From: Malacoraja senta
Taxonomy: Eukaryota
Length of the DNA: 64,000 nt
Reading direction: 5' to 3'
NCBI GenBank assembly: GCA_038087875.1
Contig: CM075992.1
Span: forward strand, 3,412,001 to 3,476,000
Part shown: positions 4,864-64,000 of the stretch, in pieces
How positions within the stretch are numbered: the stretch's first letter is position 1
Layout: each line of letters starts with the position of its first letter
Notes under the pieces: generated by a model
Seen by the model: the letters and a program-made list of their open reading frames with translations, nothing else
Databases searched by the model: none
Told to the model about the DNA's origin: nothing
Translations under genes and position numbers: made by a program

Positions 4864-4870
4864 TTTTATA
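4864..4870 (-). promoter_or_regulatory. Candidate TATA box of gene C
   Basis: TATAAAA on the minus strand ~70 nt upstream of the ATG at 4797. Confidence 0.5.
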
Positions 4871-20805: not shown

Positions 20806-20842
<37 letters not shown>

Positions 20843-34581: not shown

Positions 34582-34659
34582 CAACCCGGCGTTACAATCA
34601 AATAAGATTAAATAGAACAAGTTGTCCTACAACTTTAGGCTGTGCACACCATACGCAGC

Positions 34660-34745
34660 ATTTATTACCCTTGTAGTATTTCTATTACCCTCGTAGTATT
34701 TTTTATTACCCTTGTAGTATTTTTATTACCCTCGGAGTATTTTCC
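34660..34745. repeat. ~21-bp minisatellite, 4 copies
   Basis: tttattaccct(t/c)gtagtatt units. Confidence 0.8.
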
Positions 34746-35239: not shown

Positions 35240-35619
35240 GCTCATAGTAAAGGCACAACTTTATTATGCTGGCGGGAGTGGAAGAGTCACTGTCAGTATG
35301 GTCATGTACTTACCAGCTCCTCGCGGCCCCACTCAATTATATTGTGCACAGGGAGTATACCTCTACATGAGTAGCTAATCACACAGCTAACCACATAGTC
35401 ACTTGCACCGGTTCTTATCGTGTCCAGAACAGACTTGTTTTTCTCTATCTGTGGTTCTACTTGGTTTTGTGCCTCCCTCCATCCCTGTTTACCCACAACA
35501 TCCTTTGCAGTTCTGCAGAACCACCTGTTGGTCATTAGCTGGCAATTCTAAGCAAGTAAAGCAGGCTCACTGGGGCAACATGCAATCTGTCATTGTCCAC
35601 ATTAACTCTTAAACTCACA
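35240..35619 (-). mobile_element. Candidate ERV 3' LTR (duplicate ~63382-63761)
   Basis: Downstream of env: purine tract AGAGGAGGA then TG at 35619, AATATAAT at ~35340, AATAAA at 35265-35260; 3' end unclear. Confidence 0.45.
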
Positions 35620-35885
35620 TCCTCCTCTGCATTCCTGGCAGCATCAGTGGAGGGATATAGACCTTGGGTCGGGACCCTACTTCAGTCTGGTGGGGCAGAG
35701 GAGAGATAGGGGGTGATGAGAGGTGAGCAGAAGGGGTGGGGCAAGATTTGATGATGATCAACATGATAAGCTCATTCAGAGTCCCCTTGTGGTACAAAGT
35801 GGTCAGAGACATTGAATAATGAGGATTACAGCGATGATCAGCACGAAGATAGATCCATAATGTAATGTTGATTCCCAAAGTCCAC

Positions 35886-39885: not shown

Positions 39886-42800
39886 CTGTGGAGAACATGG
39901 ATAGGTGACGTTTCACAGAGTGCTGGAGTAACTCAGCGGGTCAGGCAGCATCTGTGGTGAACATGGATAGGTGACGTTTCACAGAGTGCTGGAGTAACTC
40001 AGCGGGTCAGGCAGCATCTGTGGAGAACATGGATAGGTGACGTTTCGGTTTGGGACCCTTCAGGTTGATTGTAGCAGGGGAACGGGAGCTGGAAGTGAGC
40101 TGGGGGCAGGACAAAGGTGGATACAAAGTGCTGGAATTACTCAGCGGTTCAGGCAGCATTTCCGGAGAACATGAAAAGGTAATGTTTCCGGTCGGGACCC
40201 TTCTTCAGAATGATGCCTAAAGTAGGGTCCCTGAAATCTCACCTCTACATGTTCTCCAGAGATGCTGCCTGAGCTGCTGAGTTACTGCAGCACGACTCAG
40301 CGGGTGAGGCAGCATCTCTAGGGAACATGGTGAGGATCTTCCAGAAACCAAGAACCGCTGATGGTGGCTTTATGTAAACCAGCATTTGCAGTTCCTTGAT
40401 TCTACAAGTGATGGGTGGATACAGGTGAGGGGAGGGGTGGGGCTTCTGTAATATTTTTCACATCGCTATGTGATTGATAACTAAAGAGATGCATTGTAGT
40501 CCCTTTTACTTAAGGGGAAAGGCGGAATATAATTTACTCTTTGGTCTTCCTTAGAAGGCTTAGTAAATTCGGCATGTCGCACTGGTGTCAAAAATCATAA
40601 ATCGGGTAAACACAGTTTCTTGCCCTGAGTAGGGAAATCGAGAACCAGAGGACATAGGTTTATGGTGAGGGGGAAATGGTCCTAATAGGAACCAGTGGGA
40701 TAACTTTTTTACACAAAGGGTGGCGGGTGTATGGAGTGAGCTGGCGGAGGAGGTATCTTCTTCTTGCATATGGCGTGCACAGCCTAACAAAACACTACAT
40801 CTATTTGTTTGTGCACGTTGGGTTGATTGCATTCGTGGCATTTGAGGCAGGGACTATCGCAACGTTTAAGAAGCTTTTAGACAGGTATGTGGATAGGACA
40901 GGTTTGGAGGGATATGGGCCAAAAGCGGGCAGGTGGGACTAGTGTGGAGTGGGTGTGGTCGGCGTAGGCAAGTTGGGCCGAAGGGCCTGTTTCCGTGCAG
41001 TATCAGTCTGTGACTCTAGTGAGCAGCTACAGTGGGGGAACACTGGTTTCAAGATATCACTTGATTCACAAGCTCTGTCATTGCTCAGAAAATCTCTCGC
41101 CTCCACAATGTCACAGCTTCCACCTATGTACTCTGAGACGTCACACTCCCTCATGCTGTGCATGGTTGGGTTCCAACACCTCTCTGCCTGCCCGTTTGAG
41201 GTGACAATGTTAGCACGGACTGTTTATTTTCAGACCAGATCTGTCTTTATTTGCAACTTCCCCTCAGAGCAGCTTAGTGGGACCAAGTGAATGGGTGAAT
41301 GGGTGAAGATAGACACAGAATGCTGGAGTAACTCAGCGGGACAGGCAGCATCTCTGGAGAGAAGGAATGGGTGACGTTTCGGGTCGAGACCCTTCTTCAA
41401 ACTTTCAAATGCTTCATAGTTCACAATAAGGCCATAAGGAATAGTCGTAGATTTAGGCCATTCGGCCCATCAAGTCTACTCAGCCATTCGATCATGGCTG
41501 ATCTATCCCTCCCTCCTAACCCCATTCTCCTGCCTTCTCCCTGTAACCTCTGACCCCCGTACTAACCAAGAATGTACAGGTAATCATGAATCACGGGTAG
41601 CCAAAATGTTCATCATGCTAGTGTGCGGGCATCGCCAGTCGGCGTGGACTCTCTCGGTTGGCCAAAGGGCCTGTTTCTGCGCTGTCCCTTGAAACTAAAC
41701 CAAGCTAAATTAAAGGTAGACAAAAATGCTGGAGAAACTCAGCGGGTGAGGCAACATCTATGGAGCGAAGGATTAGGTGACGTTTCGGGTCGAGACCCTT
41801 CTTCAGACGTCTGAAGAAGGGTCTCGACCTGAAAGGTCACCTATTTCTTCGCTCCATAGATGCTGCCTCACCCGCTGAGTTTCTCCAGCATTTTTGTCTA
41901 CCTTCGATTTTTCCAGCATCTGCAGCTCTTTCTTAAACAAGCTAAGTTAAAGGTCTCCAATTTCATTACAAACTATTCCCCGTAGCTCTTGAATTGAGGA
42001 TGTTTCAAATTTATTTCATCAGGCGGTTATGAGTCAAACACATTACTTTGGACTGGAGTTCCATCACACGTGGCAATAGCACGAATCTCCTTCTCCAAGA
42101 GAGAGTTGTGGTCAAATTTGTTTTTATCAGAACCCAGTAGTTTCATGTTGACTAAACTGAGTGTAGCAGTTCCGTCCAGATTTATTTCCTTAACAGTTTA
42201 AGTTTCGAAACTGTCATAGATGCTTTGAGCCATGCAGCACAACAACGTCATCGGCCCACCAATTCTACATTAGCCATCAAGCACCCATCTCAATACTATC
42301 CCTCACGTTTTATTTTCCCTACCCTCATCGAACCCAGGTCCCTGCAGTAAACAAAATGTGTAGGAAGAAACTGCAGATGTTGGTTTAAATCAAAGATAGA
42401 CACAAAAAGCTGGAGTTATAGCCCTGTCCCACGGTACGAGTTCATTCCAAGAGCTCTCCCGAGTTTTTAAAAAATCAGCCTCGTGGTAAGCACGGAGAAT
42501 GAACGTGGCGGGTACGTCGGAGCTCGGGGACGTCTCTTAGCGGCTCATTACGCTAACGGCAGGTACTCGGGAAGACTCGCTAATGGCAGGTAAGCAACTC
42601 AGCAGGTGAGGCAGCATCTATGGAGCAAAGGAATAGGTGACGTTTCGGGTCGAGACCATTCTTGCTTAACCATTAGAAACATGGAAACATAGAAGATAGG
42701 TGCAGGAGGAGGCCATTCGGCCCTTCGAGCCAGGACTGCCATTCATTGTGATCATGGCTCATCGTCCCCTATCAATAACCCATGCCTGCCTTCTCCCCAT

Positions 42801-45800
42801 ATCCCTTGATTCCACTAGCCCCTAGAGCTCTATCTAACTCTCTCTTAAATCCATCCAGTGACTCCATTCTTTCTTAAACATTTCGTCTACTCCACTGCGA
42901 CATCTCCTCAAGGTATGCCTACTTTGAAGAAGGGTCTCTCCGAAGAGGAAGAAGGGTCTCGACCCGAAACATCACCTATTCTATCGCTCCATAAAACCCG
43001 CTGAGTTTCTCCAGCATTTTTGTCTACCTTCGATTTTTTCCAGCATCTGCAGTTCCTTCTGAAACAATAATGGTTGTCAGGCATTATCCATGAGCAGAGG
43101 TAGAGTTGCTGCCTTACCGCGTTAGAGACCCGGGTTTAATCCTGCCTATGGGTACTGTCTGTATAGAGTTTGTATATTCTCCCTGTCAGCGCCTCTACTT
43201 CCTGAGAAGATTACGGAGAGTCGGTTTGTCAAGGATGACTCTCTCTAACATCTACAGGTGCACAGTAGAGATCATGCTGACCGGTTGCATCGTGGCTTGG
43301 TTCGGCAACTTGAGCGTCCAGGAGCGAAAAAGACTACAAAAAGTAGTAAACACTGCCCAGTCCATCATCGGCTCTGACCTCCCTTCCATCGAGGGGATCT
43401 ATCACAGTCGATGCCTCAAAAAGGCTGGCAGTATCATCAAGGACCAACACCATCCTGGCCACACACTCATCTCCCTACTACCTTCAGGTAGAAGATACAG
43501 GAGCCTGAAGACTGCAACGACCAGGTTCAGGAATAGCTACTTCCCCACAGCCATCAGGCTATTAAACTTGGCTCGGACAAAACTCTGAACATTAATAGCC
43601 CATTATCTGTTATTTGCACTTTATCAGTTTATTTATTCATGTGTGTATATATTTATATAATGGTATATGGACACACTGATCTGTTTTGTAGTCAATGCCT
43701 ACTATGTTCTGTTGTGCTGAAGCAAAGCAAGAATTTCATTGTCCTATCAGGGACACATGACAATAAACTCACTTGAACTTGAACTTGACCGCGTGGGTTT
43801 TCTCCGGGTGCTCCGGTTTCCTCCCACACTTCAAAGACGTGCAGGTTTCGTCGATTAATTGGCTTCAGTAAAATTATAAATTGTCCATAGTGTGTAGGAT
43901 AGTGCTGGTGTATGGGAATCGCTGGAATTACACTTACACCAAGCCAATTAATCTACAAACCTGCACGTCTTTGGAGCGTGGGAGGAGGCAGGAGATCTCG
44001 GAGAAAACCCACGCAGGTCACAGGGAGAACGTACAAACTCCGTACAGACAGCACCTGTAGTCAGGATCGACCCCGGGTCTCTGGCGCTGTGAGGCAGCAA
44101 CTCTACCACTGCGCCACCATGCCTTTGTTCCTCCGCACATTATACAAGGCACATAGACATCCTCCTTTGTTCCACCTGTGATATTCTGCTGCATAAATTC
44201 TGGGTCTTACCTAGTGTCAGCTTGGCCCAGTCGAAGAAAAATGACTCCAACTTTTCCTCTGGTTAAGCACTGCTTTCTATTATAGAAAATCTCTGGTGTT
44301 CACATCCCTCCGTGTCCTTGACTTGCCCAATCTGCGTCTTTCCCCTCCAGCCCTACAACTTGATATCTCTGCACTGTTTAATCTTGTCGTGGCTGCTGCT
44401 GAATTTAATTGCTGCATCATGACCAGCTGCCTGGATTCCGGGAACTCTCTTTCTGAACCCAATTCTTTCACTTCTCCCTCCAAGAAGTCAACAACAGTGT
44501 TCTTTTTGGGGGAAGCAGAATTGAAACCAAGCAGATATTAAACTGGATGGCAGGTTATAATGGATATTTTTTTAAGGCGGAGATTGACGAATTCTTGATT
44601 AGTACGAGTGTCAGGGTTGATGGGGAGAAGGCAGGAGAATGGGGTTGAGAGGTAAAAGACAGATCGGCCATGATTGAATGGCGGAGTAGACTCAATGGGC
44701 CGAATGGCCTAGTAATGCTCCTAGAACTATTGGACTAATGAACCTTTAGGCAGCACTTGCTAGGTGTAAGTTTCGGCAACTTATAAGGTTTATAAATCTC
44801 CGTTTCCCCTCTGATTCTTTTGCCTCCCTTCCCTAAACAGTTTCTCCTTACTTAAGGGGCTGTCCCACTTGGGCGACCTAATCCGCGAGTTCTGGCAAGT
44901 TTGCCCTCGACTCATACTCGCGGCATGGTCGACACGAGGAGGTCTTCGTAACTCTCCTTCATGCTCGAGAGTAGTCCCCGCGTACTCGAGGCCTCAGCTA
45001 GGTGGCGGCGTATTTTTCAACATGCTGAAAAATGCCCGCCAGTACAAAAAAGGTCGCCATGGAAAAAATCGATACTTTTTTTACTCGTAGGTTTAGTCGT
45101 AGTAGGTCGGCATGTTAGTCGTAGGTAATCTAGGGTAGTCGAAGGTAGTCGTAGATAGTCTTCATCATAGTCGAAGGGAGGTCGAAGGAGGTCGAAGGAG
45201 ATCGCCTTCACTCTCCACTATTCGGTGTCCAATTTTCTCGAAATTAGTCGTAGCTAGCCGTAGCTGGTCTTCTACATAGTCGAAGGAGGTCGAAGGAGGT
45301 CTTCAACATGACATTTTTTTCAAACTCTTCTAAACTCTTCTAAACTTGCCAATTAGGTTGCCCAAGTGGGACAGCCCCTTTACTCTTTGAAGCACCTTTA
45401 TAATTTGCAGCGCCTCTATTACATACCCCTTTGGCTCTCTCCACTATAAGAAGTGTGAGAGATACCACTTATGTTGACAGGGGCTCAGTTAGACCGCACC
45501 TCGAATGCACTTCATATTGGGCAGGTAAATACACAGGGATACCTGTATTTGTACCTGTAATTTACACCTGTAAACAGGTAGAAGCCCTTTTCCCCCAGAC
45601 AACATCGGAGTGGAGAAATCTAATATGACTGTAGATGAAGAGATGATTCTTGCACATAGGAGAAACAGGAACTAAATGATATATAGATCACATATTCATT
45701 AATAAATCCAAGAAAACAGGAGATAGATACAAAATGCTGGAGTAACTCGGCAAGTCAGGCAGCATCTGTGGAGAAAAGGAATAGGTGGCTTTCCGAAACG

Positions 45801-46633
45801 TCACCGAGTTTAGTTTAGTTTAGTTTAGTTTATTGTCACGTGTACCGAGGTACAGTGAAAAGCTTTTGTTGCGTGCTAACCAGTCAGCGGAAAGACAATA
45901 CATGATTACAATCGAGCCGTCCACAGTGTACAGATACATGATGAAGGGAATAACGTTTAGTGCAAGGTAAAGCCAGCAAAGTCCGATCAAAGATAGTCCG
46001 AGGGTCACCACTATAAGGTAGATAGTAGTTCAGGACCTATTCCTTCTCTCCAGAGATGCTGCCTGACTCGCTGAGTTACTCCAGCATTTTGTGTCTATCT
46101 TCGGTGCAAGCCAGCATCTGCAGTTCCTTCCTGCACACACCAAGAATATAGGACTATGTGTTTGGCAGAATGTGGGCAGGATTGGGCAGACAGCATTATT
46201 GCAAGGCCAGCTTTTCTTGCTCATCCACAAGTGAATGCCTTGCTGGTCTTTTGCAGAGGCAAGTGAAGGGTTAACCAGACACAGACTTCTATTCTCAAGT
46301 CACCCTTCATCCAAACCAGGTAAGGAGGGCAGACAAAATGATCTCTCATCTCCGAAGGGGATCATTAGGTCAGATGCCATTTCATGAGGAGCTTGTGTTT
46401 CATGCTTATTCATAAGAGTCTCTCTATTTCTTATTCATAAGAGTCACTGTAACCTTTATGAAATTATGTGAAATATAATTTTGTTGATAAGAGACTGAAG
46501 GAACTGCAGGTGCTGGTTTAAACCAAATAAAGACACAAAATGCTGGAGTAACTTAGCAGGACAGGCAGTATCTCTGGAGGGAAGGAATGGGTGACGTCTC
46601 GGGACAGTTGAGACTTGTTGCAGCGAGACTTAC

Positions 46634-49600
46634 TTTGGTGTTGAACTGTAGTCTGAACCATCCTCCCACTGCCAAATCTTTTCAGTCTCTGAGTCGGACA
46701 GGCCAATCCAATAACGATTAGGGGTTGCTTCCCTTTTAATGAAGTTCTGTGAGAAGATTTAACAGGATCGTGAGTAAACAAAAACACTCTCGCATTCCTC
46801 AGGGCATGTCGTTTCCGAAGATGGACACAGAGCGCTGGAGTAACTCAGCTGGTCATGCAGCATCTCCGGAGAGAAGGAATAGGTGGAGATGAGGTTGAGT
46901 TGAGTAAAGGGCCTGTCCCACTTGGGTGTCATTTGCGCGTCATTTACGTGACATCATTTATTCAGATTCAGATTCAGATTCAACTTTATTGTCATTGTCC
47001 AGTGTACAGTACAGAGACAACAAAATGCAGTTAGCATCTCCCTAGATATGAGCAATAATAAATCTAATAAATCCTGGTGGGAGGAGTGTTCGGGGGGGGG
47101 GGGTGATTGGCAGTCACCGAGGTACAGTGTTGAGAAGTGTAGCAGCCGCAGGGAAGAAGCTGTTCCTGGACCTGCTGGTCCGGCAACGGAGAGACCTGTA
47201 GCGCCTCCCGGATGGTAGGAGGGTAAACAGTCTGTGGTTGGGGTGAGAGCAGTCCTTGGCGATGCTGAGCGCCCTTCGCAGACAACGCTTGCTTTGGACA
47301 GACCCAATGGAGGGGAGTGAGGAACCGGTGATGCGTTGGGCAATTTTCATGCGTCATGACGCACGACGCGTACGTCATGACGCGCACGTGATACGTGCAT
47401 GGCGTGCATTACGCGTGCGTGGTGGGTGGTGACGTAGGCAGTGACGCGCGGTCGCTCGCAGCGCCCCAGGGTTTTGGGATTCACAAAAATCTTCGCGCGC
47501 CATTTGCGTGTCGGTCCCTGAGACACAAAGTGCTGGAGTAACTCAGCGGGTCAGACAGCGGGTCCTTCTTCAGTCCCGGCCCGAAATGTCACCCATCCTT
47601 TTTCTGCAGAGATGCTGCATGACCCGCTGAGTTACTCCAGCAATTTGTGTCCATCTTCAGTCTAAACCAGCGTCTGCGGTTCCTTCAGTCTCTTGTGAAC
47701 CTGTGGTTGCGTGGGAAGGTTGGGAAACGGCTGGTGGGGATGGAAGTGTAGACCAGGGAGTTGCACATGGAGTGGTCCCTTGGTGAAGTTGAGGATGAGT
47801 CTGGAGGTGGGATCTTGCTGGATTGTAGGACCTTGCAAAGGATGATGTGTTGAATGTGGAAGCTCGTGGGATGAAAGGTAAGGATCAGAAAACACTGTAT
47901 TTTTTTGCTCAGGAAATGAGGGAGGCCAGATAAGCCGGAGGTGTGGGATACAGAGTCAAGAGTGTTTAATTATCATATGCATCAGGAAGGGAATTATGAC
48001 ATTCTCGTAGATACAAGGAACTACAGATGCTGGTTTATACCATTGAAAGACACAGCTGGAGTAACTCAGCGGTTCAGGCAACATCTCTGGAGAGAAAGCA
48101 AGTCCTCAACCTTTTTCTCCAGAGATGCTAACTGACCCACTGAGATACTCCAGCCATTTGTGTCTATATGATATAGAGTTTGGTCGGCATGGTGGTGCAG
48201 CGGTAGAGTTGCTGCCTACAGCGCCAGAGACCCGGGTTCGATCCTGACCAAAGGAGCTGTCTGTACGGAGTTTGTACCTTCTCCCCGTGACCTGCTTGTG
48301 TTTTTACTCGGAGATCTTCGATTTCCTCCCACACTCCAAAGACGTACACGTTCCGAGGTTAATTGGCTTGGTATAAAATAAATTGTCCCTAGTGTGTGTA
48401 GGATAGTGTTAGTGTGCGGGGATCGCTGGTCGGCACAGACTCGGTGGGCCAAAGGGCCTGTTCCCGCGGTGTATCTCTGAACTAAACTAAAAAAAAACGT
48501 GACACCAGAGGATCATCATCATCTCGCAGCATCTTTCACTATTGCCAATAGCTCACAAGAGCACATGTTTCAGTTTCAGTTCAGTTTATTGTCACGTGGA
48601 CCGAGGTATAGTTTAAAGCTTACCAGTCAGCAGGAAGACAATACAATGATTACAATCGAGTCAAGTTGGGAAAAGGCAAAGTACAATGGGATCTGGGGGT
48701 CCTTGTACATCAGTCTATGAAAGTAAGCATGCAGGTACAGCAGGCAGTGAAGAAAGTGAATGGCATGTTGGCCTTTATAACAAGAGGAATCGAATATAGG
48801 AGCAAAGAGGTCCTACTGTAGTTGTACAGAGCCCTAGTGAGACCACACCTTGAGTATTGTGTGCAGTTTTGGTCCCCTAATTCTAGGAAGAACATTCTTG
48901 CTATTGAGGGAGTGCAGCATAGGTTTACAAGGTTAATTCCTGGGATGGCGGGACTGTCATATGCTGAGAGAATGGAGCGGCTGGGCTTGTCCACTCTGGA
49001 GTTTAGAAGGATGAGAGGGGATCTCATTGAAACATATAAGATTGTTAAGGGCTTGGACACGCCAGAGGCAGGAAACATGTTCCCGATGTTGGGGGAGTCC
49101 AGAACCAGGGGCCACAGTTTAAGAATAAGGAGTAAGCCATTTAGAATGGAGACGAGGAAACACTTTTTCCCACAGAGAGTGGTGAGTCTGTGGAATTCTC
49201 TGCCTCAGAGGGCGGTGGAGGCAGGTTCTCTGGATGCTTTCAAGAGAGAGCTAGATAGGGCTCTTAAAAATAGCAGAGTCAGGGGATATGGGGAGAAGGC
49301 AGGAACGGGGTACTGATTGGGGATGATCAGCCATGATCACATTGAATGGCGGTGCTGGCTCGAAGGGCCGAATGGCCTACTCCTGCGCCTATTGTCTATT
49401 GTCTATTGAGCCATTTACAGTGTACAGATACATGTTGCTGTAGGAGTAGAGATTTAAGAGTGTGGAGCGATTGTGAGGTGTGAGATTGTAGATCTACTTC
49501 TGTAGTTAGCACGCAGATAGTCCCCTGGGTGGGGCGCCATCTTGGGAAGCAATTGTGCCCACTCACCTGCTCTGAAGCGCTGTTGATGGCAACCAGATGT

Positions 49601-50177
49601 GAATCCATGGCGGCACATTGTCCTTTGGCAAAATACCAGGAGCCTGACTTTATTGTGAGCTGGTAACAGTGCCCATTGAACCCTATCCAGTCGCTGGGAC
49701 ACTTGAGCCAAGAGCAATCTGAAGAGAGTGCATGGGATTGAGAATCAAGGTCAAGTACACACTTATTGTCACGTGCACCAATTGAGGGTACAGTGATATT
49801 TGAGTCACCGTACAGCCATACAAGTAAAAAGAACACAATGCACGATAGAGATTAACAGAAACGTCCATCACAGTGGAATCAGCATTCCTCACTGTGACGG
49901 AAGGCAATAACGTTCAGTCAACCTTCCTCCTTTGTTCACCTGAGGTCGCTCTCATGCACTTATTTCAAGACTTAATAGTTTCCAACTTCCAACCAGGTTC
50001 AGGAATAGCTACTTCCCCACAGCCATCAGGCTATTAAACTTGGCTCGGACAAAACTCTGAACTTTAATAGCCCATTAACTGTTATTTGCACTTTATCAGT
50101 TTATTTACTCATGTGTGTATATATTTATATAATGGTATATGGACACGCTGATCTGTTTTGTAGTCAATGCCTTCTAT

Positions 50178-50216
<39 letters not shown>

Positions 50217-53200
50217 ATTTTATTTAATTTATTCTGATTATGTGTTTTTTTGTTTGTTGTGATTCTATGCATTGTAAGGTGTCCTTGGGTTTTAGAAAGG
50301 CGCCAGTAAATAAAATGATTATTATTATTATGTTCTGTTATGCTGAAGCAAAGCAAGAATTTCATTGTCCTATCAGGGACACATGACAATAAACTCTCTT
50401 GAACATGAACTTGAACTTACTTCCCAGTTTCAGATTGGAGATCATGTTGGTCATGTTACCCTGCAGTTTCAGTAGTTCTTCAGACACTGGGAAACAAAAA
50501 CAGATTGAAATATTAACAAGCAGAACTCCCATGCCCACAGCATGCTTGGGGACATATCTTCCATCAAGCGTCACTCAGCGGGACAGGCAGCCATCCCCCG
50601 TTGAGTTAAACCCCTGTCCCACTGTACGAGTTCATTCCAAGAGCTCTCCCCGAGTTTGCCCTGATTCGAACTCGGAGATTTACGGTAATGGCCGCTCGTC
50701 GGTACTCGGGGCTCTCGCGGACATTTTTCAACGTGTTGAAAAATCTTCACGAGTCTTCCCGTGCTTACCTGCCGTTAGCGAGACTTCCCGAGTACCTGTC
50801 GTTAGCGCTAAGGGACGTCCCCGAGCTCCGACGTACCCGCTACGTTCATTCTCCGTGCTTACCACGAGTTTGGGTTTTTCAAAACTCGGGAGAGCTCTAG
50901 GAATGAACTCGTACCGTGGGACAGGGCCATTACTCCAGCATTTTGTGTCTGCAGTTCTTTCCTACACATATCTTCCATCAGGTATCTAATGTGGCCCTTC
51001 CTTTGAATTGAGTCATCACTCTTTATCGAAAAGGTCAGGTTCCTATTAAATCTTTCCCCCCCCCCCCAACCTTAAACCCAAGTGCCCTGGTTCTCGATCC
51101 CCCTACTCTGGCCAAGAGACTCTGTGAATTTACCCGATCTATTCCTCTCATGATTTTGTCCAGCTCCATAAGATCGCCCCTCATCTTCCTGCGCTTCATG
51201 GAATAGAGTCCCGGCCTGCTCAACCTCTCCCTACAGCCCATGCCCTCGAGTTCCGGCAACACCTTCGTAAATCTTCCTGTACCCTTTCCAGCTTGACAAC
51301 TTCAAGATTACAGTAGATTAGCGTCTACTCATTTTGTTAATGTTGAATTGTTTTCAAATTCAAAATAGAGGGATCTTGAGAGGGACTTACAGAGGGGTCT
51401 TGGGGAAGCCCATTGCTCCGTCAAAGTGGCGACACAAGTAGATAGAATGATAGAGAGGGTATAAAGTATGGTGATGTTTATCTTCATTGATATGATGATC
51501 GCATTGCGTACTGGGCAGTGGGTAGTGCTGGTTAGATGGACAAAGCATGTGAGGGTGTCACGGTGGCACAGCGGTGGAGTTGCTGCCTTACAGTGCTTAC
51601 ACTGCCAGAGACCCGGGTTCGATCCTGACTACGGGTGCTGTCTTGTATGGAGTTAGCACCCTTCTCCCCGTGACCTGCGTGGTTTCCCCCCGATATCATC
51701 GGTTTCCTCCCACACTCCAAAGACGCACAAGTTTGTAGGTTCATTGGCTCGGTATAAATGTAAATTGTCCCTAGGGTGTGTTAGATTTTTGTTAATGTGC
51801 GGGGATCGCTGGTCAGTAAGGACTCGGTGGGCCAAAGGGCCTGTTTGTGTGCCGTATATCTAAACTAAACTAGAATAAACCAAGAAGACTTGATGTTTAA
51901 GAAGGAACTGCAGCTGCTGGAAAAATCGAAGGGAGACAAAAATGCTGGAGAAACTCAGCGGGTGAGAAGGAATCTCACCCATCTATGGAGAGAAGGAATA
52001 GGCAACGTTTCAGGTCGAGACGCTTCTTCAGACTGATGTCGGGGGGGGGGGGGCCGGGAAAAAGAAAGGAAGAGGCGGAGACAGCAGGCTGTGGGAGAGC
52101 TGGGAAGGGGAGGGGAAGGAGGGAGAAAGCAGGGACTACCTGAAATTGGAGAAGTCAATGTTCATACCACTGGGGTGTAAACTACCCAAGCGAAATATGA
52201 GGTGCTTGATATTTAAATATTGAAACGTAAGACTTGAGGTAACTTGCTCAGTAGACCAGGCCACCCATGTGTTAATTGATTCCAACTTACTTTCCAGTTT
52301 CAGTTTGGAGTTCAGGTCGGTTATGTTACTCTGGGTTTTCTGTAGTTCTTCAAACACTGGGAAACAAAACAGATTGAAACATTGAAGGGAGACAAAAATG
52401 CTGGAGAAACTCAGCGGGTGAGGCAGCATCTATGGAACGAAGGAAATAGGCAACGTTTCGGGTCGAGACCCTTCTTCAGATTGAAACATTAACCAGCAAA
52501 CCTCCCATCAAACTTGCCCACAGCATGTATCTTCCATCAGTGTCTAATGCGGCTCTTCAGCGAATTGTTTAAGAAGGAACTGCAGATGCTGGAAAAATCG
52601 AAGGTAGACAAAATGCTGGAGAAACTCAGCGGGTGAGGCAGCATCTATGGAGCGAAGGAATAGGTGACATTTCGGGTCGAGACCCTTCTTCAGACTGGTT
52701 AGGTTAGGTTTATAGGTTCAGGTGGAAAAAAAAAAGCTGTTCACTGTTCCTCGGTATACATGTCAAATAAACTAAACTGAACTGAACTGAGAAAAGGCAT
52801 AGGTGACGTTTCGGGTCGAGACCCTTCTTCAGAATAGAGGGATCTTGAGAGGGAACTTACAGAGGGGTCTTGGGGAAGCCCATTGCTCCGTCAAAGTAGC
52901 AACACGTAGATAGAATGATAGAGAGGGTATAAAGTATGGTGATGTTTAATCTTCATTGATATCAGAGCATTGCGTACTGGGCAGTGGGTAGTGCTGGTTA
53001 GATGGACAAAGCATGTGAGGGTGTCACGGTGGCGCAGCGGTAGAATTGCTGCCTTACTGTGCTTACACTGCCAGAGACCCGGGTTCGATTCCTGACTACG
53101 GGTGCTGTCTTGTATGGAGTTAACACCTTCTCCCCGTGACCTGCGTGGTTTTCCCCCGATATCATCGGTTCCCTCCCACACACCAAAGACGCACAGGTTT

Positions 53201-56200
53201 GTAGGTTCATTGGCTCGGTATAAATGATAATTGTCCCTAGGGTGTGTTAGATTTGTGTTAATGTGCGGGGATCACTGGTCAGTAAGGACTCGGTGGGCCA
53301 AAGGGCCTGTTTGTGTGCCGTATATCTAAACTAAACTAGAAAAAAACAAGAAAGACTTGATGTTTAAGAAGGAACTGCAGCTGCTGGAAAATCGAAGGGA
53401 GAGAAAAATGCTGGAGAAACTCAGCGGGTGAGAAGGAATCTCACCCATCTATGGAGAGAAGGAATAGGCAACGTTTCAGGTCGAGACGCTTCTTCAGACT
53501 GATGTCGGGGGGGGGGGGCCGGGAAAAAGAAAGGAAGAGGCGGAGACAGTGGGCTGTGGGAGAGCTGGGAAGGGGAGGGGAAGGAGGGAGAAAGCAGGGA
53601 CTACCTGAAATTGGAGAAGTCAATGTTCATACCGCTGGGGTGTAAACTACCCAAGCGAAATATGAGGTGCTTGATATTTAAATATTGAAACGTAAGACTT
53701 GAGGTAACTTGCTCAGTAGACCAGGCCACCCATGTGTTAATTGATTCCAACTTACTTTCCAGTTTCAGTTTGGAGTTCAGGTCGGTTATGTTACTCTGGG
53801 TTTTCTGTAGTTCTTCAAACACTGGGAAACAAAACAGATTGAAACATTGAACGTAGACAAAAATGCTGGAGAAACTCAGCAGGTGAGGCAGCATCTATGG
53901 AACGAAGGAAATAGGCAACGTTTCGGGTCGAGATCCTTCTTCAGATTGAAACATTAACCAGCAAACCTCCCATCGAACTTGCCCACAGCATGTATCTTCC
54001 ATCAGGTGTCTAATGCGGCTCTTCAGCGAATTGTTTAAGAAGGAACTGCAGATGCTAGAAAATCGAAGGTAGACAAAAATGCTGGAGAAACTCAGCGGGT
54101 GAGGCAGCATCTATGGAGCGAAGGGATAGGTGACATTTTGGGTCGAGACCCTTCTTCAGACTGGTTAGGTTAGGTTTATAGGTTCAGGTGAAAAAAAAAA
54201 AGCTGTTCACTGTTTCCTCGGTATACATGTCAATAAACTAAACTGAACTGAACTGAGAAAAGGCATAGGTGACGTTTCGGGTCGAGACCCTTCTTCAGAA
54301 TAGAGGGATCTTGAGAGGGAACTTACAGAGGGGTCTTGGGGAAGCCCATTGCTCCGTCAAAGTGGCGACACAAGTAGATAGAATGATAGAGAGGGTATAA
54401 AGTATGGTGATGTTTAATCTTCATTGATATCGGGGCATTGCGTACTGGGCAGTGGGTAGTGCTGGTTAGGTGGACAAAGCTTGTGGCGCAGCGGTAGAGT
54501 TGCTGCCTTACAGTGCTTACACTGCCAGAGACCCGGGTTCGATCCTGACTACTGTATGGAGTTAACACCTTCTCCCCGTGACCTGCGTGGTTTCCCCCGA
54601 TATCATCGGTTCCCTCCCACACACCAAAGACGCACAGGTTTGTAGGTTCATTGGCTCGGTATAAATGATAATTGTCCCTAGGGTGTGTTAGATTTTTGTT
54701 AATGTGCGGGGATCACTGGTCAGTAAGGACTCGGTGGGCCAAAGGGCCTGTTTGTGTGCCGTATATCTAAACTAAACTAGAATAAACCAAGAAAGATTTG
54801 ATGTTTAAGAAGGAACTGCAACTGCTGGAAAAATCGAAGGGAGACAAAAATGCTGGAGAAACTCAGCGGGTGAGGCAGCATCTATGGAGAGAAGGAATAG
54901 GCAAAGTTTCAGGTCGAGACCCTTCTTCAGACTGATGTCGGGGTGAGGGGGGGGGAAAGGAAGGAAGGGGCGGAGATAGGGGGATGAGGGAGAGCTGGGA
55001 AGGGGAGGGGAAGGAGGGAGAAAGCAAGGACTACCTGAAATTGGAGAAGTCAATGTTCATACCGCTGGGGTGTAAACTACCCAAGCGAAATATGAGGTGC
55101 TTGATATTTAAATATTGAAACGTAAGACTTGAGGTAACTTGCTCAGTAGACCAGGCCACCCATGTGTTAATTGATTCCAACTTACTTTCCAGTTTCAGTT
55201 TGGAGTTCAGGTCGGTTATGTTACTCTGGGTTTTCTGTAGTTCTTCAAACACTGGGAAACAAAACAGATTGAAACATTGAAGGGAGACAAAAATGCTGGA
55301 GAAACTCAGCGGGTGAGGCAGCATCTATGGAACGAAGGAAATAGGCAACGTTTCGGGTCGAAACCCTTCTTCAGATTGAAACATTAACCAGCAAACCTCC
55401 CATCGAACTTGCCCACAGCATGTATCTTCCATCAGGTGTCTAATGCGGCTCTTCAGCGAATTGTTTAAGAAGGAACTGCAGATGCTAGAAAAATCAAAGG
55501 TAGACAAAAATGCTGGAGAAACTCAGCGGGTGAGGCAGCATCTATGGAGCGAAGGGATAGGTGACATTTCGGGTCGAGACCCTTCTTAAGACTGATGTCG
55601 GGGGGGGGCCGGGAAAAAAGAAAGGAAGAGGCGGAGACAGTAGGCTTGTGGGAGAGCTGGGAAGGGGAGGGAAAGGAGGGAGAAAGCAAGGACTACCTGA
55701 AATTGGAGAAGTCAATGTTCATACCACTGGGGTGTAAACTACCCAAGCGAAATATGAGGTGCTTGATATTTAAATATTGAAACGTAAGACTTGAGGTAAC
55801 TTGCTCAGTAGACCAGGCCACCCATGTGTTAATTGATTCCAACTTACTTTCCAGTTTCAGTTTCAGGTCGGTTATGTTACTCTGGGTTTTCTGTTGTTCT
55901 TCAGATTCAGATTCAGATTCAACTTTATTGTCATTGTGCAGTGTACAGTACAGAGACAACGAAATGCAGTTAGCATCTCCCTAGAAGAGCGACATTAATA
56001 TGAGCAGTAAATAAATAAATCTAATAAATCCTGGTGGGAGGAGTGTCCGGGGGGGGGGGTGTGATTGGCAGTCACCGAGGTACAGTGTTGAGTAGTGTAA
56101 CCGCCGCAGGGAAGAAGCTGTTCCTGGACCTGCTGGTCCGGCAACGGAGAGACCTGTAGCGCCTCCCGGATGGTAGGAGGGTAAACACTGGGAAACCAAA

Positions 56201-59200
56201 CAGATTGAAACATTGAAGGTAGACAAAAATGCTGGAGAAACTCAGCGGGTGAGGCAGCATCTATGGAGCGAAGGGAATAGGTGACATTTCGGGTCGAGAC
56301 CCTTCTTCAGACTGGTCAGGTTAGGTTCAGGTGAAAAAAAAAGCCTTTCACTGTTCCTCGGTATACATGTCAATAAACTAACTTGTCAATGAACTGAAGT
56401 TAACTGAGGAAAGGGATAGGTGACGTTTCGGGTCGAGACCCTTCTTCAGACTGAGAGTCAGGGGAAAGGGAAAGGAGAGATATAGACAGCCATATAGAGA
56501 GATAAATGAATTAAACAAATGAATGAAAGATGTGCAAAAGAGTAATGATGATAAAGGAGACAGGCCATTGTTAGCTGTGGGCTAGGTGGGAACGAGACAA
56601 TGAGACTCAACAAGACAACTTTGAAGCTAATACAACAACTTGGGTGTGGGGAGGACGATTGAGGGGGGATGCAGGGTTACTTGAAGTTAGAGAAATCAAT
56701 AGTCATACCTCTGGGTTGTAGACTGCCCATTTACCACTTACCGATAGTTTTCAGCTTAGACAGTTCACCAGCCATTTGATTTCTCTGGCCCTCTTCGGAC
56801 ACTGAGAAGCAAATATCAGGTTAAAACATTAATGACTGGAGGTCATGGCTCTTATTTGTAGCCTGTTCATGAATGTGCTGCTACAAAAGGAATCCCACTC
56901 ACACACAATCCCTGCTACTTAAAACTTTGTTTTCTCTCTTTCTGACCCGAAACATTACCTTTCCATGTTCACCAGAGATGCTGCCTGACCCACTGAGTTA
57001 CTCCAGCACTCTGTGAAACGTCACCTATCCATGTTCTCCAGAGATGCTGCCTGACCCACTGAGTTACTCCAGCACTCTGTGAAACGTCACCTATCCATGT
57101 TCTCCAGAGATGCTGCCTGACCCGCTGAGTTACTCCAGCACTCTGTGAAACGTCACCTATCCATGTTCTCCAGAGATGCTGCCTGACCCGCTGAGTTACT
57201 CCAGCACTCTGTGAAACGTCACCTATCCATGTTCTCCACAGATGCTGCCTGACCCGCTGAGCTACTCCAGCACTCTGTGAAACATCATCCATCCATGTTC
57301 TCCAGAGATGCTGCCTGACCCACTGAGTTACGCCAGCACTTTCTATCCCAGAGTTGAAAGCATTAACATTTCTCTCTCCAAAGATGCTGCCTGGCCTGCT
57401 GAATTCTGAATTTCAGCATTTGTAAACTTCTTAGACATTTGTTATCCAATTGTTATCTCCCAAGAAGGTTCACTCCATGGAAAATAATTTATCTGACCCT
57501 CGAAGGCATCGATGCGGCAGACAGCCAGAACCTTTTTCCCAGGGTGGAAATATCAAAGACTAGTGGGCATAGCTTAAAAGTAAGATGGATAAGGTTTAAA
57601 GGAGGTGAGCCGGGGCAAGTTTTTTTGCATGGAGTGGTGGGTGCCTGGAACACACTGACAAAGGTGGAGACAGATAAGACAGTGGCGTTTAAGTGGGTTT
57701 TAGATAGGCACATGGATGTACAGGGAATGGAGGGATATGGATCATGTGCTGGCCAAGGAGATTAGTTTAACGGCATCATAAAAACATAGAAACATAGAAA
57801 AAGGTGCAGGAGTAGGCCATTCTGCCCTTCGAGCCTGCACCGCCATTCAATATGATCATGGCTGATCATTTAATATTAGTACCCCCGTTTCTGCTTTCTC
57901 CCCATATCCCTTGATTCCGTTAGCCGTAAGAGCTCTATCGAACTCTCTCTTGAAAACATCCAGTCAATTGGCCTCCACTGCCTTCTGTGGCAGAACATTC
58001 CACAGATTCACAACTCTCTGGGTGAAATAGTTTTTCTTCAGAGGGAGTAAAGAGAAGGTTCACCAGACTGATTCCTGGGATGGCAGGACTTTCATATGAA
58101 GAAAGACTGGATAGACTTGGCTTGTACTCGTTTGAATTCAGAAGATTGAGGGGGGATCTTATAGAAACTTACAAAATTCTTAAGGGGTTGGACAGGCTAG
58201 ATGCAGGAAGATTGTTCCCGATGTTGGGGAAGTCCAGAACAAGGGGTCACAGTTTAAGGATAAGGGGGAAGTCTTTTAGGACCGAGATGAGAATTTTTTT
58301 TTTCACACACAGAGAGTGGTGAATCTGTGGATTTCTCTGCCACAGAAAGTAGTTGAGGCCAGTTCATTGGCTATATTTAAGAGGGAGTTAGATGTGGCCC
58401 TTGTGGCTAAAGGGATCAGGGGGTATGGAGAGAAGGCAGGTACAGGATACTGAGTTGGATGATCAGCCATGATCATATTGAATGGCGGGCAGGCTCGAAG
58501 GGCCGAATGGCCTACTCCTGCACCTATTTTCCATGTTTCTATGTTTCATCTCAGTCCTAAATGGTCTACCCCTTGTTCTTAAACGGTGACCCCTGGTTCT
58601 GGACTCCCCCAACATGGGGAACATCGTGTTTAGCACGGACATTGTGGGCTGAAGGGCCTATTACTGTGTATGTTCTAACCCCCGAAGCCTCTGGGTGATT
58701 TTAAAGATGAATTTCCACTTGCAGATTTGAATATTACTGCAACATACAGCTGGGGAGAATTTGTCAGAGGCTTTAGAATTCAGAGATATAGCGTGGAAAG
58801 AGGCCCTTCAGCCCACTGAGTCGGTGCTGACCGGCTATCCCCATACACTAGCACTATCCTACACACTGGGGACAATTTACCATTTTAGCGAAACCAATTA
58901 ACTTACAAACCTGTGCGTCTTTGGAGAGTGGGAGGAAACCGGAGCACCCGGAGAAAACCCACGCAGGTCACGGGGAGAAGGTACAAATTCCGTACAGACA
59001 GCACCCATGGTTAGGATCGAACCTGGGTCTCTGGCGCCGTAAGGCAGCAACTCTACCGCTGCGCCACCGTGCTGTCAGAGGTTTAGGGTAACTCACCATT
59101 TCCTTTGAACTGTGAAAGCTGCAGCATCAGCTTGTCCTGAACTTCTTTCATTCCGGAATACATCCCTGAAACTGAGGGGGGAGAACGTTAGGCGGGAGCA

Positions 59201-62089
59201 TGTGCAGCACGTCACTGAGGATCGACACAGAAATGCTGGAGTAACTCAGCGGGCAAGGCAGCATCTCTGGAGAGAAGGAATGGGTGCCGTTTAGGGTCGA
59301 CACCCTTCTTCAGAAGGTCCTTTACAAGTGCAAAAACCCTCCGCTGGAAGAATCACTGGGTGATGCGTGTAGCAAGATGAATCAGTCTGAAGAAGGGTCT
59401 CGACCCGAGACGTCACCCATTCCTTCTCTCCAGAGATGCTGCCTGTCCCGCTGAGTTACTCCAGTAGTAAACACTGCCCAGTCCATCATCGGCTCTGACC
59501 TCCCTTCCATCGAGGGGATCTATCACAGTCGCTGCCTCAAAAAGGCTGGCAGTATCATCAAGGACCCACACCATCCTGGCCACACACTCATCTCCCTACT
59601 ACCTTCAGGTAGAAGGTACAGGAGCCTGAAGACTGCAACGACCAGGTTCAGGAATAGCTACTTCCCCACAGCCATCAGGCTATTAAACTTGGCTCGGACA
59701 AAACACTGAACTTTATTAGCCAATTAACTGTTATTTGCACTTGATCAGTATATTGATTCATGTGTGTATATATTTATAGAATGGTATATGGACACACTGA
59801 TCTGTTTTGTAGTCAATGCCTACTATGTTCTGTTGTGCTGAAGCAAAGCAAGAATTTCATTGTCCTATCAGGGACACATGACAATAAACTCACTTGAACT
59901 TGAACTTTTTGTGTCTATCTGCGGGATGAACCAGCATCTGCTGTTCCTTCCCACACTTCTTACCTTCCGAACTGAGTTAACACATGTTAGCATTTCATAC
60001 CTGGGACTTCAATTAAGGATAAATTCCAGCACAGTAGAGTAGGGCTGGGCACATATATATGCACGGTTGGTTTAAGCATGGAGTCTGAAGAATGGTCTCC
60101 AGAGATGCTACCTGACCCGCTGAGTTACTCCAGCTTTTTGTGTCTATCTTCAGATTAAACCAGCATAGAAACATAGAAACATAGAAAATAGGTGCAGCAG
60201 TAGGCTATTCGGCCCTTCCAGCCTGCACCGCCATTCAATATGATCATGGCTGATCATCCAACTCAGTATCCTGTACCTGCCTTCTCTCCATACCCCCTGA
60301 TCCCTTTAGCCACAAGGGCCACATCTAACTCCCTCTTAAATATAGCCAATGAACTGGCCTCAACTACCTTCTGTGGCAGAGAATTCCAGAGATTCACCAC
60401 TCTCTGTGTGAAAAATGTTTTTCTCATCTCGGTTCTAAAAGACTTCCCACTTATCCTTAAACTGTGACCCCTTGTTCTGGACTTCCCCATCATCGGGAAC
60501 AATCTTCCTGCATCTAGCCTGTCCAACCCCTTAAGAATTTTGTAAGTTTCTATAAGATCCCCCCTCAATCTTCTAAATTCTAGCGAGTACAAGCCGGGTC
60601 TATCCAGTCTTTCTTCATATGAAAGTCCTGCCATCCCAGGAATCAGTCTGGTGAACCTTCTCTGTACTCCCTCTATGGCAAGAATGTCTTTCTGCAGTTC
60701 CTTCCTACACATGGTGGGTTTAAGTCGAAGATAGACACAAAAAGCTGGAGTAACTCAGCGGGACAGGCAGCATCTCTGGAGAGAAGGAATGGGTGACGTT
60801 TCGGGTCGAGACCCCTCTTCAGTGTAGTCTTTACCTTTCACTGTCACTATGATGAGGCTCAATAAGGCGAAGAAGGTCGAAAGAGCCACGAGACCAAAGA
60901 TAAGCAGCAACCACGTCCTTTTGCTGATACAATCACCACTTGACCATGCTAAAAACAATAGGAAATTTAGTTTAGTTTAGAGATACAATGTAGGACCCGG
61001 ATGAGAAAAACATTTTTCACACAGAGAGTGGTGAATCTGTGGAATTCTCTGCCACAGAAGGTAGTTGAGGCCAGTTCATTGGCTATATTTAATGGCCTAC
61101 TCCTGCACCTATTTTCTATGTTTCTATGTTTCAATGAAACAAGCCCATCGGCCCACCGGGCAATGATCGCCGCACACTAACAATATCCTACACACATTGG
61201 TGACAAATTACAAATTGACCATATCCAATTAACCTACAAACCTGTACATCTTTGGAGTGTGGGAGGAGATTACTCCAGCACTTTGTGTCTATCTTTGTTT
61301 TAAACCAGCATCTACAGATAGTAGCCTACACATGTGGGTAGTAGTTCTGCCCTGCTCTCTTGTTGTGGTAGGATGATTCAGTTGCCTGATAACAGCAGGG
61401 AAGAAACTGTCTCTGAATCATCTCCAGGGCCACAGGAAAGCTGCAGTTCTCCATCTCTGAGCAACTCCAGTCCCATAGCAAAGTCATAGAGTCATGATTG
61501 AATGGTGGAGTAGACTCGATGGGCCGAATGGCCAACTTCTGCTCCTCTGGCATAGAGTCATACAGTGTGGAAACATGTCCCATCTACACTAGTCCCACCT
61601 GCCAGCACTTGCCCCATATCCCTCTAAACCTGCCCTATCGATGTACCTGTCCAAATGTTTCTTAAACATTGGGATAGTCCCTGCCTCAACTACCTCCTCC
61701 GGCAGCTCGTTCCATACACCCACCACCCTTTAAGTGAAAAAGTTACCCCTCAAGTTCTTATTAAATCTTTCCCCGCTCACCTCTGGTTCTCGATTCTCTT
61801 ACTCTGGGGCAAGATGCTCTGTGCATCTACCAGATCTACTTTCACCACTGGTCCCTCTGTTCCTGCACATCTTTGAAAACTGGATCATTCTGCCTTCTTT
61901 TGCATCTGAATATTCCTCTTTCACTTCGGACACTTCATGGCATGAGACTTTACTAAACTGGCCAAGGTTCCCCTTCCTTCTCAATCCCCACATACCTTTA
62001 TCCTCATCATGCTTCCGTTCAGCTTCTGTTCTCTGCTCTTTCACCTCTGAGCAGTCTTTGAAGTATTCGTAGCTGGACGGCTCAGGCAT
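46634..62089 (-). CDS. Gene B: duplicate of gene A without its own terminal CTLD exon (partial gene or pseudogene)
   Basis: Exons 62089-61996, 60948-60835, 59165-59097, 56801-56742, [56187-55848 disrupted], 55251-55186, 53821-53756, 52356-52291, 50486-50421, 49718-49567, 46746-46634. One V->I change in CTLD exon 2. No EPN/WND exon seen between 35.9 and 46.6 kb. Confidence 0.85.
51364..56450. repeat. Tandem neck-exon array (copy B), one unit shorter
   Basis: Exon 3' ends at 52291, 53756, 55186, 55848. Confidence 0.93.
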
Positions 62090-64000
62090 GCCGCTGATTC
62101 TTCGTTGGAGAGGGAATATACGACACAAATCTTTCGGACACTGGAGGAGCCTTGATTTAAGCAATTCCTCTGCCCAATTGAAATATCAGAAAACCACCAA
62201 CTTGCACCAACTTCTCCATTTCCTCCAATTATGTAACTTAAAGATGATCATTTGCCGTGAGTTCTGCTGTGCTCAGCACATGCGAGCTTGCGACATAACA
62301 GCAAAAAAAACGCACGCCTGTAAAGAATTAAAAAACTTATGGCCAGTCTATTTTGCTCTAAACATTATTCCCTTAACATGTATCTATACACTGTAAATGG
62401 CTCGATTGTAATCACGTATTGCCTTTCCGCTGACTGTTTAACCCGGAACAAAAAGATTGTCACTGTACCTCGGTACACGTGACAATAAACTACACTGAAA
62501 CTCCTTATCAATCTTCCTGAGTTGGACAAAACTTGGCCCTTTTGTGAAAGAAAGAGTTCTGTTTCCTTTAAGAGTCAAGAGTGTTTTATTTTCATATGTC
62601 CCGGACGGGACAATGAAATTCTTACTTGCGGCAGCACAACAGAATATGTGAATATGTAAACACCTTTATTGTGGTGGGAGATTGCAACCTTCACGTGGTC
62701 CGCCCTGTTTCGACGAATGCAATCAACCCGGCGTTACAATCAAATAAGATTAAATAGAACAAGTTGTCCTACAACTTTAGGCTGTGCACACCATACGCAG
62801 CATTTATTACCCTTGTAGTATTTCTATTACCCTCGTAGTATTTTTTATTACCCTTGTAGTATTTTTATTACCCTCGGAGTATTTTCCACAGCACTTTAGA
62901 AACAACAACACATGGTTGGTGAAAACCAAGACGACTCCAATTGCTGGAAATCGAAAAGGAAAACAGAAACCGCTGGAAACAATTAATAAGGCTGGGCAGA
63001 ATCTGTGGATTGAGAAACTGTTAAGACTTCAGTTTGATAGCCCTTAATTTTGTTTAGTTTGGTATAGTTTAGAGATACAGCGTGGAAACAGGCGCTCCGG
63101 CCCACCGGGTCCACGCCGACCGGCGATCCCCGCACACTGACACTATCCTACACCCACGAGGGACAAGTTTTACATTTACTAAAGCCACTTAACCGACAAA
63201 CCTGTGCGTCTTTGGAGTGTGGGACGAAACTGAAGATCTCGTAGAAAACGCACGCAGGTCACGGGGAGAATGTACAAACTCCGTACAGACAGCACCCGTA
63301 GTCAGGATCGAACCCGGGTCTCCGGCGCTGCATTCGCTGTAAAGCAGCAACTCTACCGCTGCGCCACCGTGCCGCCCCAATGCTCATAGTAAAGGCACAA
63401 CTTTATTATGCTGGCGGGAGTGGAAGAGTCACTGTCAGTATGGTCATGTACTTACCAGCTCCTCGCGGCCCCACTCAATTATATTGTGCACAGGGAGTAT
63501 ACCTCTACATGAGTAGCTAATCACACAGCTAACCACATAGTCACTTGCACCGGTTCTTATCGTGTCCAGAACAGACTTGTTTTTCTCTATCTGTGGTTCT
63601 ACTTGGTTTTGTGCCTCCCTCCATCCCTGTTTACCCACAACATCCTTTGCAGTTCTGCAGAACCACCTGTTGGTCATTAGCTGGCAATTCTAAGCAAGTA
63701 AAGCAGGCTCACTGGGGCAACATGCAATCTGTCATTGTCCACATTAACTCTTAAACTCACATCCTCCTCTGCATTCCTGGCAGCATCAGTGGAGGGATAT
63801 AGACCTTGGGTCGGGACCCTACTTCAGTCTGGTGGGGCAGAGGAGAGATAGGGGGTGATGAGAGGTGAGCAGAAGGGGTGGGGCAAGATTTGATGATGAT
63901 CAACATGATAAGCTCATTCAGAGTCCCCTTGTGGTACAAAGTGGTCAGAGACATTGAATAATGAGGATTACAGCGATGATCAGCACGAAGATAGATCCAT

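What the first reader, a model, noticed from the sequence alone, without database searches (positions are those of the whole stretch)
42419..62089. Duplication copies the promoter and all exons except the last: two 5' cassettes, one terminal exon
Seen: homology starts at 42596=13217, about 190 bp from the acceptor of the EPN/WND exon (13027), so B has no sugar-binding exon. The junction joins a truncated MITE to the inside of a Penelope insert. A keeps both 20-bp flanking repeats (ttctgaaacaataatggttg, ~13177 and ~13678) while B keeps one, so B's edge is the derived break. B's other exons are open. Inference: B lies upstream on the same strand, so its phase-2 donor (46633) could splice ~33.6 kb to A's last exon, a variable/constant layout. 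Otherwise B makes a truncated decoy or is a pseudogene. False duplication of two haplotypes is a real alternative.
Basis: partly seen in the sequence, partly recalled or inferred. Interest (0 to 1): 0.7.

Follow-up and report, generated by a model that had tools for sequence, protein, structure and literature searches.

The report
Recent partial lectin gene duplication
A skate-like fish's sugar-binding receptor gene has a nearly identical copy next to it that lacks the last exon; it is most likely a very recent, largely dead partial duplicate (possibly an assembly error) rather than a new way of making receptor variants.

Summary
Observation confirmed. A type II C-type lectin gene (minus strand; orthologs in Amblyraja and Leucoraja) is duplicated from 13217 (copy A) to 42596 (copy B), running past the window end. 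B has every coding exon except the EPN/WND exon.

New here:
(1) The junction is in exact register with a repeat family flanking both sides (chance about 0.4%, post hoc) and has no N gap. This favours a real repeat-mediated rearrangement.
(2) A and B look like two alleles: 0 substitutions in 8.26 kb of the 5' part, 54 in 8.77 kb of the 3' part, and 4 vs 3 neck-repeat units.
(3) A is not clean either: a 14-nt duplication frameshifts one neck exon.
(4) B's 'specific' Ile codon is the ancestral state, so it is a poor marker.
(5) B's donor must skip 10 acceptors to reach the last exon, and would give A's protein except for V/I.

Best reading: a very recent 3'-truncated duplicate (SRGAP2C-type layout), probably near-null (0.58). 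False duplication 0.24, decoy 0.10, variable/constant splicing 0.08. No read-level evidence was obtained.

The parts
12895..13027 (-). Terminal exon C3 (EPN, WND, last three CRD cysteines, stop); single copy in the window
   Evidence: (Lectin_C positions 71-107, E 3e-9)
13177..13697 (.). Composite repeat insert with 20-bp flanking direct repeats (13177, 13678); A-side breakpoint at 13217
13217..35858 (-). Copy A: part matched by B inside the window
17261..17373 (-). A exon C2 (Val codon at 17304)
20195..20346 (-). A exon C1
21048..21113 (-). A neck exon N0 (66 nt)
21986..27454 (-). A neck-exon tandem array, 4 units of ~1.3-1.43 kb; exons 27111-27046, 25680-25615, 24250-24185 and 22962-22883
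22883..22962 (-). A neck exon N1: 80 nt with a 14-nt tandem duplication; frameshift, stop after 203 aa if included
27601..35858 (.). 5' part of A, identical to B 55742-64000 except three 1-base homopolymer indels
28601..33947 (-). A exons E4 28660-28601, E3 31029-30955, E2 (TM) 32806-32693, E1 33947-33854 (ATG)
42352..42596 (+). Left junction flank: host repeat up to its register site, then the 5' half of a MITE (42419-42596)
42595..42596 (.). Junction: B starts at the register position where the host repeat on the left was interrupted; no N gap
42596..64000 (-). Copy B (extends beyond the window)
46634..46746 (-). B exon C2, last exon of B; Ile codon at 46677; reading into the intron stops at once (291 aa)
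49567..50486 (-). B exons C1 49718-49567 and N0 50486-50421
51364..55594 (-). B neck-exon array, 3 units; exons 55251-55186, 53821-53756, 52356-52291, all 66 nt and open
56742..62089 (-). B exons E4 56801-56742, E3 59171-59097, E2 60948-60835, E1 62089-61996

Best explanation
B is a real, very recent 3'-truncated tandem copy of a type II C-type lectin gene. It was made by a template switch or unequal exchange between two same-orientation copies of a high-copy repeat 29.4 kb apart; a whole-gene duplication followed by such a deletion would look the same. A and B derive from two alleles of the gene, which explains the mosaic divergence and the different neck arrays. Shown: anatomy, junction register, divergence pattern, reading frames. 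Inferred: B is transcribed like A. Its transcripts end in the intron (291 aa, carbohydrate domain lacking EPN, WND and three cysteines, so unable to fold or bind sugar) or run on into A's nearer acceptors out of frame and are degraded. A makes full-length protein by skipping its frameshifted neck exon. B is thus a near-null dosage passenger, perhaps a polymorphic CNV.
For: Junction in exact register with the host repeat: 33 plus-strand register sites in 1-42595, chance about 0.4% within 2 nt, post hoc. This is the chimeric-element signature described for Alu/Alu rearrangements (PMC6071635, passages). No N in the window, whereas false duplications are most often separated by a gap (PMC9516828, passages). 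Allele-like mosaic: 0 substitutions in 8258 bp vs 54 in 8769 bp (P about 1e-16 if uniform; P 0.002 against the quietest 5.8 kb). The identical part is not repeat-poor (64% vs 52% multi-copy). Near the junction 11 changes are derived in A, 10 in B, 1 tied and 9 unpolarised, so it is not one-sided mutagenesis. 10 of 11 joins from B's donor to A acceptors stop early. The two Amblyraja models differ by exactly one 22-aa neck repeat, so skipping a neck exon has precedent in the ortholog. 3'-truncated duplicates keeping the promoter are a common class whose fusion transcripts rarely alter the ORF (PMC6169893, passages).
Against: No reads, depth or transcripts were examined, so neither the junction nor expression is shown. 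The overlap is centred on a heterogeneous tandem array and extends 8.8 kb to one side and 15.1 kb to the other (if the unit ends at the junction), as two haplotigs overlapping round a heterozygous array would. The three differences in the identical part are all homopolymer indels, typical of consensus error. Ko et al. also report gap-free false duplications from wrong gap filling. Misfolding and decay of B's products rest on general knowledge and were not tested.
Confidence: 0.58

Rival explanations
1. False heterotype duplication: the two haplotypes of one gene were placed in tandem around the heterozygous neck array and joined without a gap. The gene is single-copy with two alleles, one carrying the frameshifted neck exon.
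For: Differences are allele-sized, patchy and split between both copies. An 8.26-kb stretch differs only by three homopolymer indels. Neck arrays differ in number and sequence (B1 and B2 are 2.5-4.1% from the A units; A4 vs B3 0.23%). Boundaries of homozygous and heterozygous sequence are prone to false duplication (PMC9516828, passages).
Against: No N gap. Abutted contig ends would not fall in register with the host repeat, and the shared sequence is far too short for an overlap join (inference).
Confidence: 0.24
2. Real duplicate acting as a decoy or dominant-negative: B's intron-terminated mRNA makes a stable 291-aa protein (tail, TM, coiled neck, two thirds of the lectin domain) that oligomerises with A's product through the neck and lowers its avidity, as SRGAP2C does to SRGAP2A.
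For: B is open and stops right after exon C2. AATAAA motifs lie downstream in B's intron. The neck is intact. The class is documented (PMC6169893, passages).
Against: No sign of selection: one coding difference, and B holds the ancestral state. The same AATAAA motifs sit in A's intron. An unpaired-cysteine, half-folded domain is usually retained and degraded (general knowledge). None of the 12 near-length relatives of P0001 lacks the last exon.
Confidence: 0.1
3. Nascent variable/constant locus: B's promoter drives a ~50-kb pre-mRNA whose C2 donor splices 33.6 kb to A's last exon. Decay removes the out-of-frame joins, and B supplies full-length lectin where A's own path is frameshifted.
For: Same strand and matching phase; only C3 keeps the frame. 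The lesions in A (N1 frameshift) and B (no C3) are complementary. sDscam-beta cassettes of four exons with their own promoters splice to constant exons (PMC4835542, passages).
Against: Ten nearer, stronger-looking acceptors. The product is A's protein with V to I, so there is no diversity to select. Skipping the 80-nt exon rescues A more simply. There are only two cassettes, and they are allele-level similar.
Confidence: 0.08

Closest known systems
3'-truncated segmental duplicates (SRGAP2C, ARHGAP11B; PMC6169893, passages seen)
   Same: Keeps the 5' end and upstream DNA, lacks downstream exons, near-identical to the parent.
   Different: Here the copy is directly upstream of its parent on the same strand, lacks only one exon, and may not be fixed or even real; no function is shown.
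Chelicerate sDscam-beta 5' cassettes and clustered protocadherins (PMC4835542, passages seen)
   Same: Multi-exon 5' cassette upstream of a second one, with a shared, phase-compatible 3' exon.
   Different: Those clusters have many diverged cassettes and RNA proof. Here two cassettes differ by one residue and neck count, the 'constant' part is one exon, and no transcript is known.
Alu/Alu-mediated rearrangement (PMC6071635, passages seen)
   Same: Breakpoints in two same-orientation copies of one repeat family, joined in register.
   Different: A half MITE sits at the join, so the length of microhomology cannot be fixed from this window.
False heterotype duplication (PMC9516828, passages seen)
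   Same: Adjacent allele-like copies; one copy lacks terminal exons.
   Different: No assembly gap; junction in repeat register.
Skate group II C-type lectins XP_032868181.1 / XP_032868180.1 (Amblyraja radiata) and XP_055520006.1 (Leucoraja erinacea); CLEC4M neck VNTR (search listing and abstract starts only)
   Same: Tail-TM-neck-CRD with EPN/WND and the same 22-aa neck repeat; 69-78% identity including gaps.
   Different: Orthologs have 1-2 of these neck repeats; here there are 3-4, each its own exon in a ~1.4-kb tandem unit. CLEC4M's repeats lie within one exon (recalled).

Membership tests
Group II (type II membrane) C-type lectin | Tail, TM, coiled neck, CRD with Ca-binding EPN/WND | tested here: met
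   A model and orthologs; B lacks the EPN/WND exon
3'-truncated duplicate gene | Keeps 5' exons and upstream DNA, lacks downstream exon(s) | tested here: met
3'-truncated duplicate gene | Both copies exist on one chromosome | tested here: inconclusive
   Register junction and no gap favour it; no read evidence
3'-truncated duplicate gene | Copy is transcribed; product interferes with the parent | not tested
   No RNA reads were examined
Variable/constant cluster (sDscam-beta, Pcdh) | Cassette donor phase-compatible with the shared exon | tested here: met
Variable/constant cluster (sDscam-beta, Pcdh) | Each cassette has its own promoter | tested here: inconclusive
   Upstream 1.9 kb has no substitution; start site not mapped
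Variable/constant cluster (sDscam-beta, Pcdh) | Cassettes encode different proteins | tested here: not met
   One V/I difference plus neck count
Variable/constant cluster (sDscam-beta, Pcdh) | Upstream cassette is spliced to the shared exon in mRNA | not tested
   No RNA reads were examined
False heterotype duplication | Assembly gap between the copies | tested here: not met
   A, C, G and T sum to 64000
False heterotype duplication | Allele-like differences at a homozygous/heterozygous boundary | tested here: met
   also expected of a real inter-allelic duplication
False heterotype duplication | Haploid read depth, discordant pairs, no spanning reads | not tested
   No read-level result was obtained
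Repeat-mediated rearrangement (AAMR-like) | Same-family, same-orientation substrates joined in register | tested here: met
Penelope-like element (host repeat) | Hammerhead motif or PLE reverse transcriptase | tested here: inconclusive
   Rfam 0 matches in 12600-13720; label recalled only

The most novel reading that the evidence does not exclude
The duplication is real and the two lesions complement each other: A's own path is frameshifted at a neck exon and B lacks the last exon, so full-length lectin is made in part by B's cassette splicing over ten exons to A's terminal exon. This would be a vertebrate multi-exon variable/constant locus caught at birth.
Probability: 0.08. Interest if true: 0.7.

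Novelty: new member of a known kind. Interest (0 to 1): 0.27.

Why it matters
As most likely read, it is an ordinary young partial duplicate in an immune-lectin cluster. It is useful as a CNV or curation flag and as an example of repeat-register rearrangement and an exon-level neck VNTR in a skate. If B did splice to A's last exon, it would give a testable first step for how sDscam/protocadherin-type layouts arise from one partial duplication, with a built-in selective reason (A's frameshift).

Tried and rejected
No whole genome is held for this window, so the predicted end of B near 70.7 kb could not be read.

No reads or contigs were laid on the junction or exons, which leaves junction reality, depth and splicing open. 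The run search listed two samples of organism A holding 0.78 and 0.73 of the words of 12560-17400 (X1, X2). Other organisms hold about 0.40, probably shared repeats. None was laid, so none counts as evidence.

Protein searches with B's C2 exon (2 hits among 4 candidates) and with P0001 (12 hits among 713) found no protein identical to this gene and no form lacking the last exon; this is weak evidence.

One-sided replication mutagenesis next to the junction was rejected. Polishing noise confined to repeats was rejected as the sole cause, because the identical part is at least as repeat-rich. A second EPN exon was not found elsewhere in the window, nor by any of 17 fetched proteins in 1-12800 or 35859-42595.

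An acceptor just before A's ATG would put B in frame with A (495-628 aa, two TM segments). The only hint of an upstream exon is a GTAAGT donor at 35313, one of 31 on the minus strand, many of them unassigned; kept as a weak lead.

The literature search for this lectin (C-type lectin, skate, neck, CD209, cartilaginous, at least 4 terms) gave 2 unrelated papers. The search for cassette layouts gave only Dscam and protocadherin papers. Supplements were not read. The scan's own index returned nothing. No fold or complex job was run: exon content already shows what B lacks.
Full report
Setting. The window has no N and is rich in short repeats. The gene is a minus-strand type II C-type lectin. Its closest database relatives are skate proteins: XP_032868181.1 and XP_032868180.1 (Amblyraja radiata), XP_055520006.1 (Leucoraja erinacea) and four unnamed sequences. 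A spliced model of copy A aligns to these seven at 69-78% identity including gaps. The organism is therefore inferred to be a skate or close relative.

The duplication. A 13214-23302 matches B 42593-52694 and A 23297-35858 matches B 51359-64000, at 98.3-98.6%, so B extends beyond the window. Exons were fixed by AG/GT boundaries and ortholog alignment. A has E1, E2 (TM), E3, E4, four 22-residue neck exons, N0, C1, C2 and C3. B has the same with three neck exons and no C3. C3 covers Lectin_C positions 71-107 of 107 and occurs once.

The junction. Left of it is a host repeat, then TA, then the first ~178 nt of a MITE; right of it is A's sequence from 13217. The host repeat on the left stops at GCTGGAGT and B resumes at AACTCAGC, the next bases of the same repeat's consensus, in the same orientation. 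There are 33 such plus-strand register sites in 1-42595, so a random break would land within 2 nt of one about 0.4% of the time (post hoc). In-register chimeric elements are the mark of Alu/Alu-type template switches (PMC6071635, passages). Abutted contig ends would not be expected to show this (inference). It also means the MITE may have been truncated beforehand, so an intact MITE at ~70.7 kb is not a required prediction. The name Penelope for the host repeat is recalled; Rfam found nothing.

Divergence is a mosaic. There are 54 substitutions in 13217-21985: 31 in the first 1.58 kb, 7 in the next 5.8 kb and 16 in the last 1.4 kb. There are 0 in 27601-35858, where only three one-base homopolymer indels differ. 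That is not uniform (P about 1e-16; 0.002 against the quiet middle). The identical part is 64% multi-copy against 52% for the diverged part. Polarised against other repeat copies in the window, derived states near the junction split 11 A, 10 B, 1 tie and 9 uncalled; near the array 2 A, 8 B and 6 uncalled. In the neck array A4 and B3 differ by 0.23%, while B1 and B2 differ from the A units by 2.5-4.1%. A and B thus look like two alleles. That fits an exchange between homologues, a recent CNV with a haplotype switch or conversion, and also a false duplication. False duplications usually have a gap and haploid depth, though wrong gap filling can hide the gap (PMC9516828, passages). I put real at about 0.76.

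What each copy can make. A's exon 22962-22883 has a 14-nt tandem duplication (80 nt) and stops the frame after 203 aa if included. Skipping it gives a clean 334-aa lectin. The two Amblyraja models differ by exactly one such repeat. B read into its intron stops at once at 291 aa, without EPN, WND and three of the four core cysteines; by established C-type lectin structure this cannot bind sugar. Joined to A's acceptors, B's donor stops early in 10 of 11 cases and is in frame only with C3. That product (334 aa) is A's skipped form with Ile for Val. C3's acceptor is the weakest by a crude count. Ile is in 4 of 7 skate ortholog sequences and Val in none, so the codon proposed as a B marker is ancestral and may segregate at the intact gene.

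Comparison. The layout is that of 3'-truncated duplicates such as SRGAP2C and ARHGAP11B, which keep the parent's expression and give truncated or fusion transcripts (PMC6169893, passages). It resembles sDscam-beta, where four-exon cassettes with their own promoters splice to constant exons (PMC4835542, passages). It fails that family's test of distinct cassettes, and the splice itself is unobserved. None of the 12 near-length relatives returned for P0001 lacks the last exon. The held-library searches returned no paper on this locus.

Verdict. The feature is in the sequence and is most likely a very young partial duplicate of little function (0.58). Assembly artefact (0.24), decoy (0.10) and variable/constant splicing (0.08) are the rivals. 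The complementary lesions in A and B are the one point that keeps the bold reading alive. No read-level evidence was obtained; long reads across 42595/42596 and phased cDNA would settle it.

Noticed in passing
window:21986-27454 and 51364-55594: Exon-level neck VNTR: each ~1.3-1.47 kb unit carries one 66-nt coiled-coil exon; 4 units in A, 3 in B, against 1-2 repeats in skate orthologs.
   Followed up: yes
window:27707-28046 (B 55848-56187): A further neck exon copy is dead in both copies: 6-nt deletion and a ~290-bp repeat inserted at its 5' end.
   Followed up: partly
window:79-3337, minus strand: Exon-like pieces of a second type II membrane gene: TM exon about 3328-3236 and coiled-coil exons 1711-1678 and 150-79; one stretch matches shark lectin P0012 at E 0.002. 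Suggests a lectin cluster continuing left of the window.
   Followed up: partly
window:36723-37100, minus strand: 126-codon open stretch with a weak ENV polyprotein match (TLV_coat E 0.0024, below cut-off); probably an endogenous retroviral env remnant.
   Followed up: partly
window:7277-9367, minus strand: 697-codon open frame with a reverse transcriptase domain (RVT_1 E 2e-38), a LINE-type element.
   Followed up: partly
window:31029 and 31023: Tandem acceptors 6 nt apart at exon E3; orthologs use the upstream one.
   Followed up: yes
window:33948-33960 and 35313: Two AG sites just before A's ATG are in frame with B's last donor; a possible upstream non-coding exon donor at 35313 is not distinguishable from background.
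   Followed up: partly
window:21233-21553 and 42419: Two MITEs of one family sit at the same position of the same host repeat, suggesting a target preference or a composite element.
   Followed up: partly
window:13715-14206, plus strand: A repeat-borne open frame matches ALKBH8_N (E 5.5e-6); part of the element recurs at 31321-31765 and in B.
   Followed up: no
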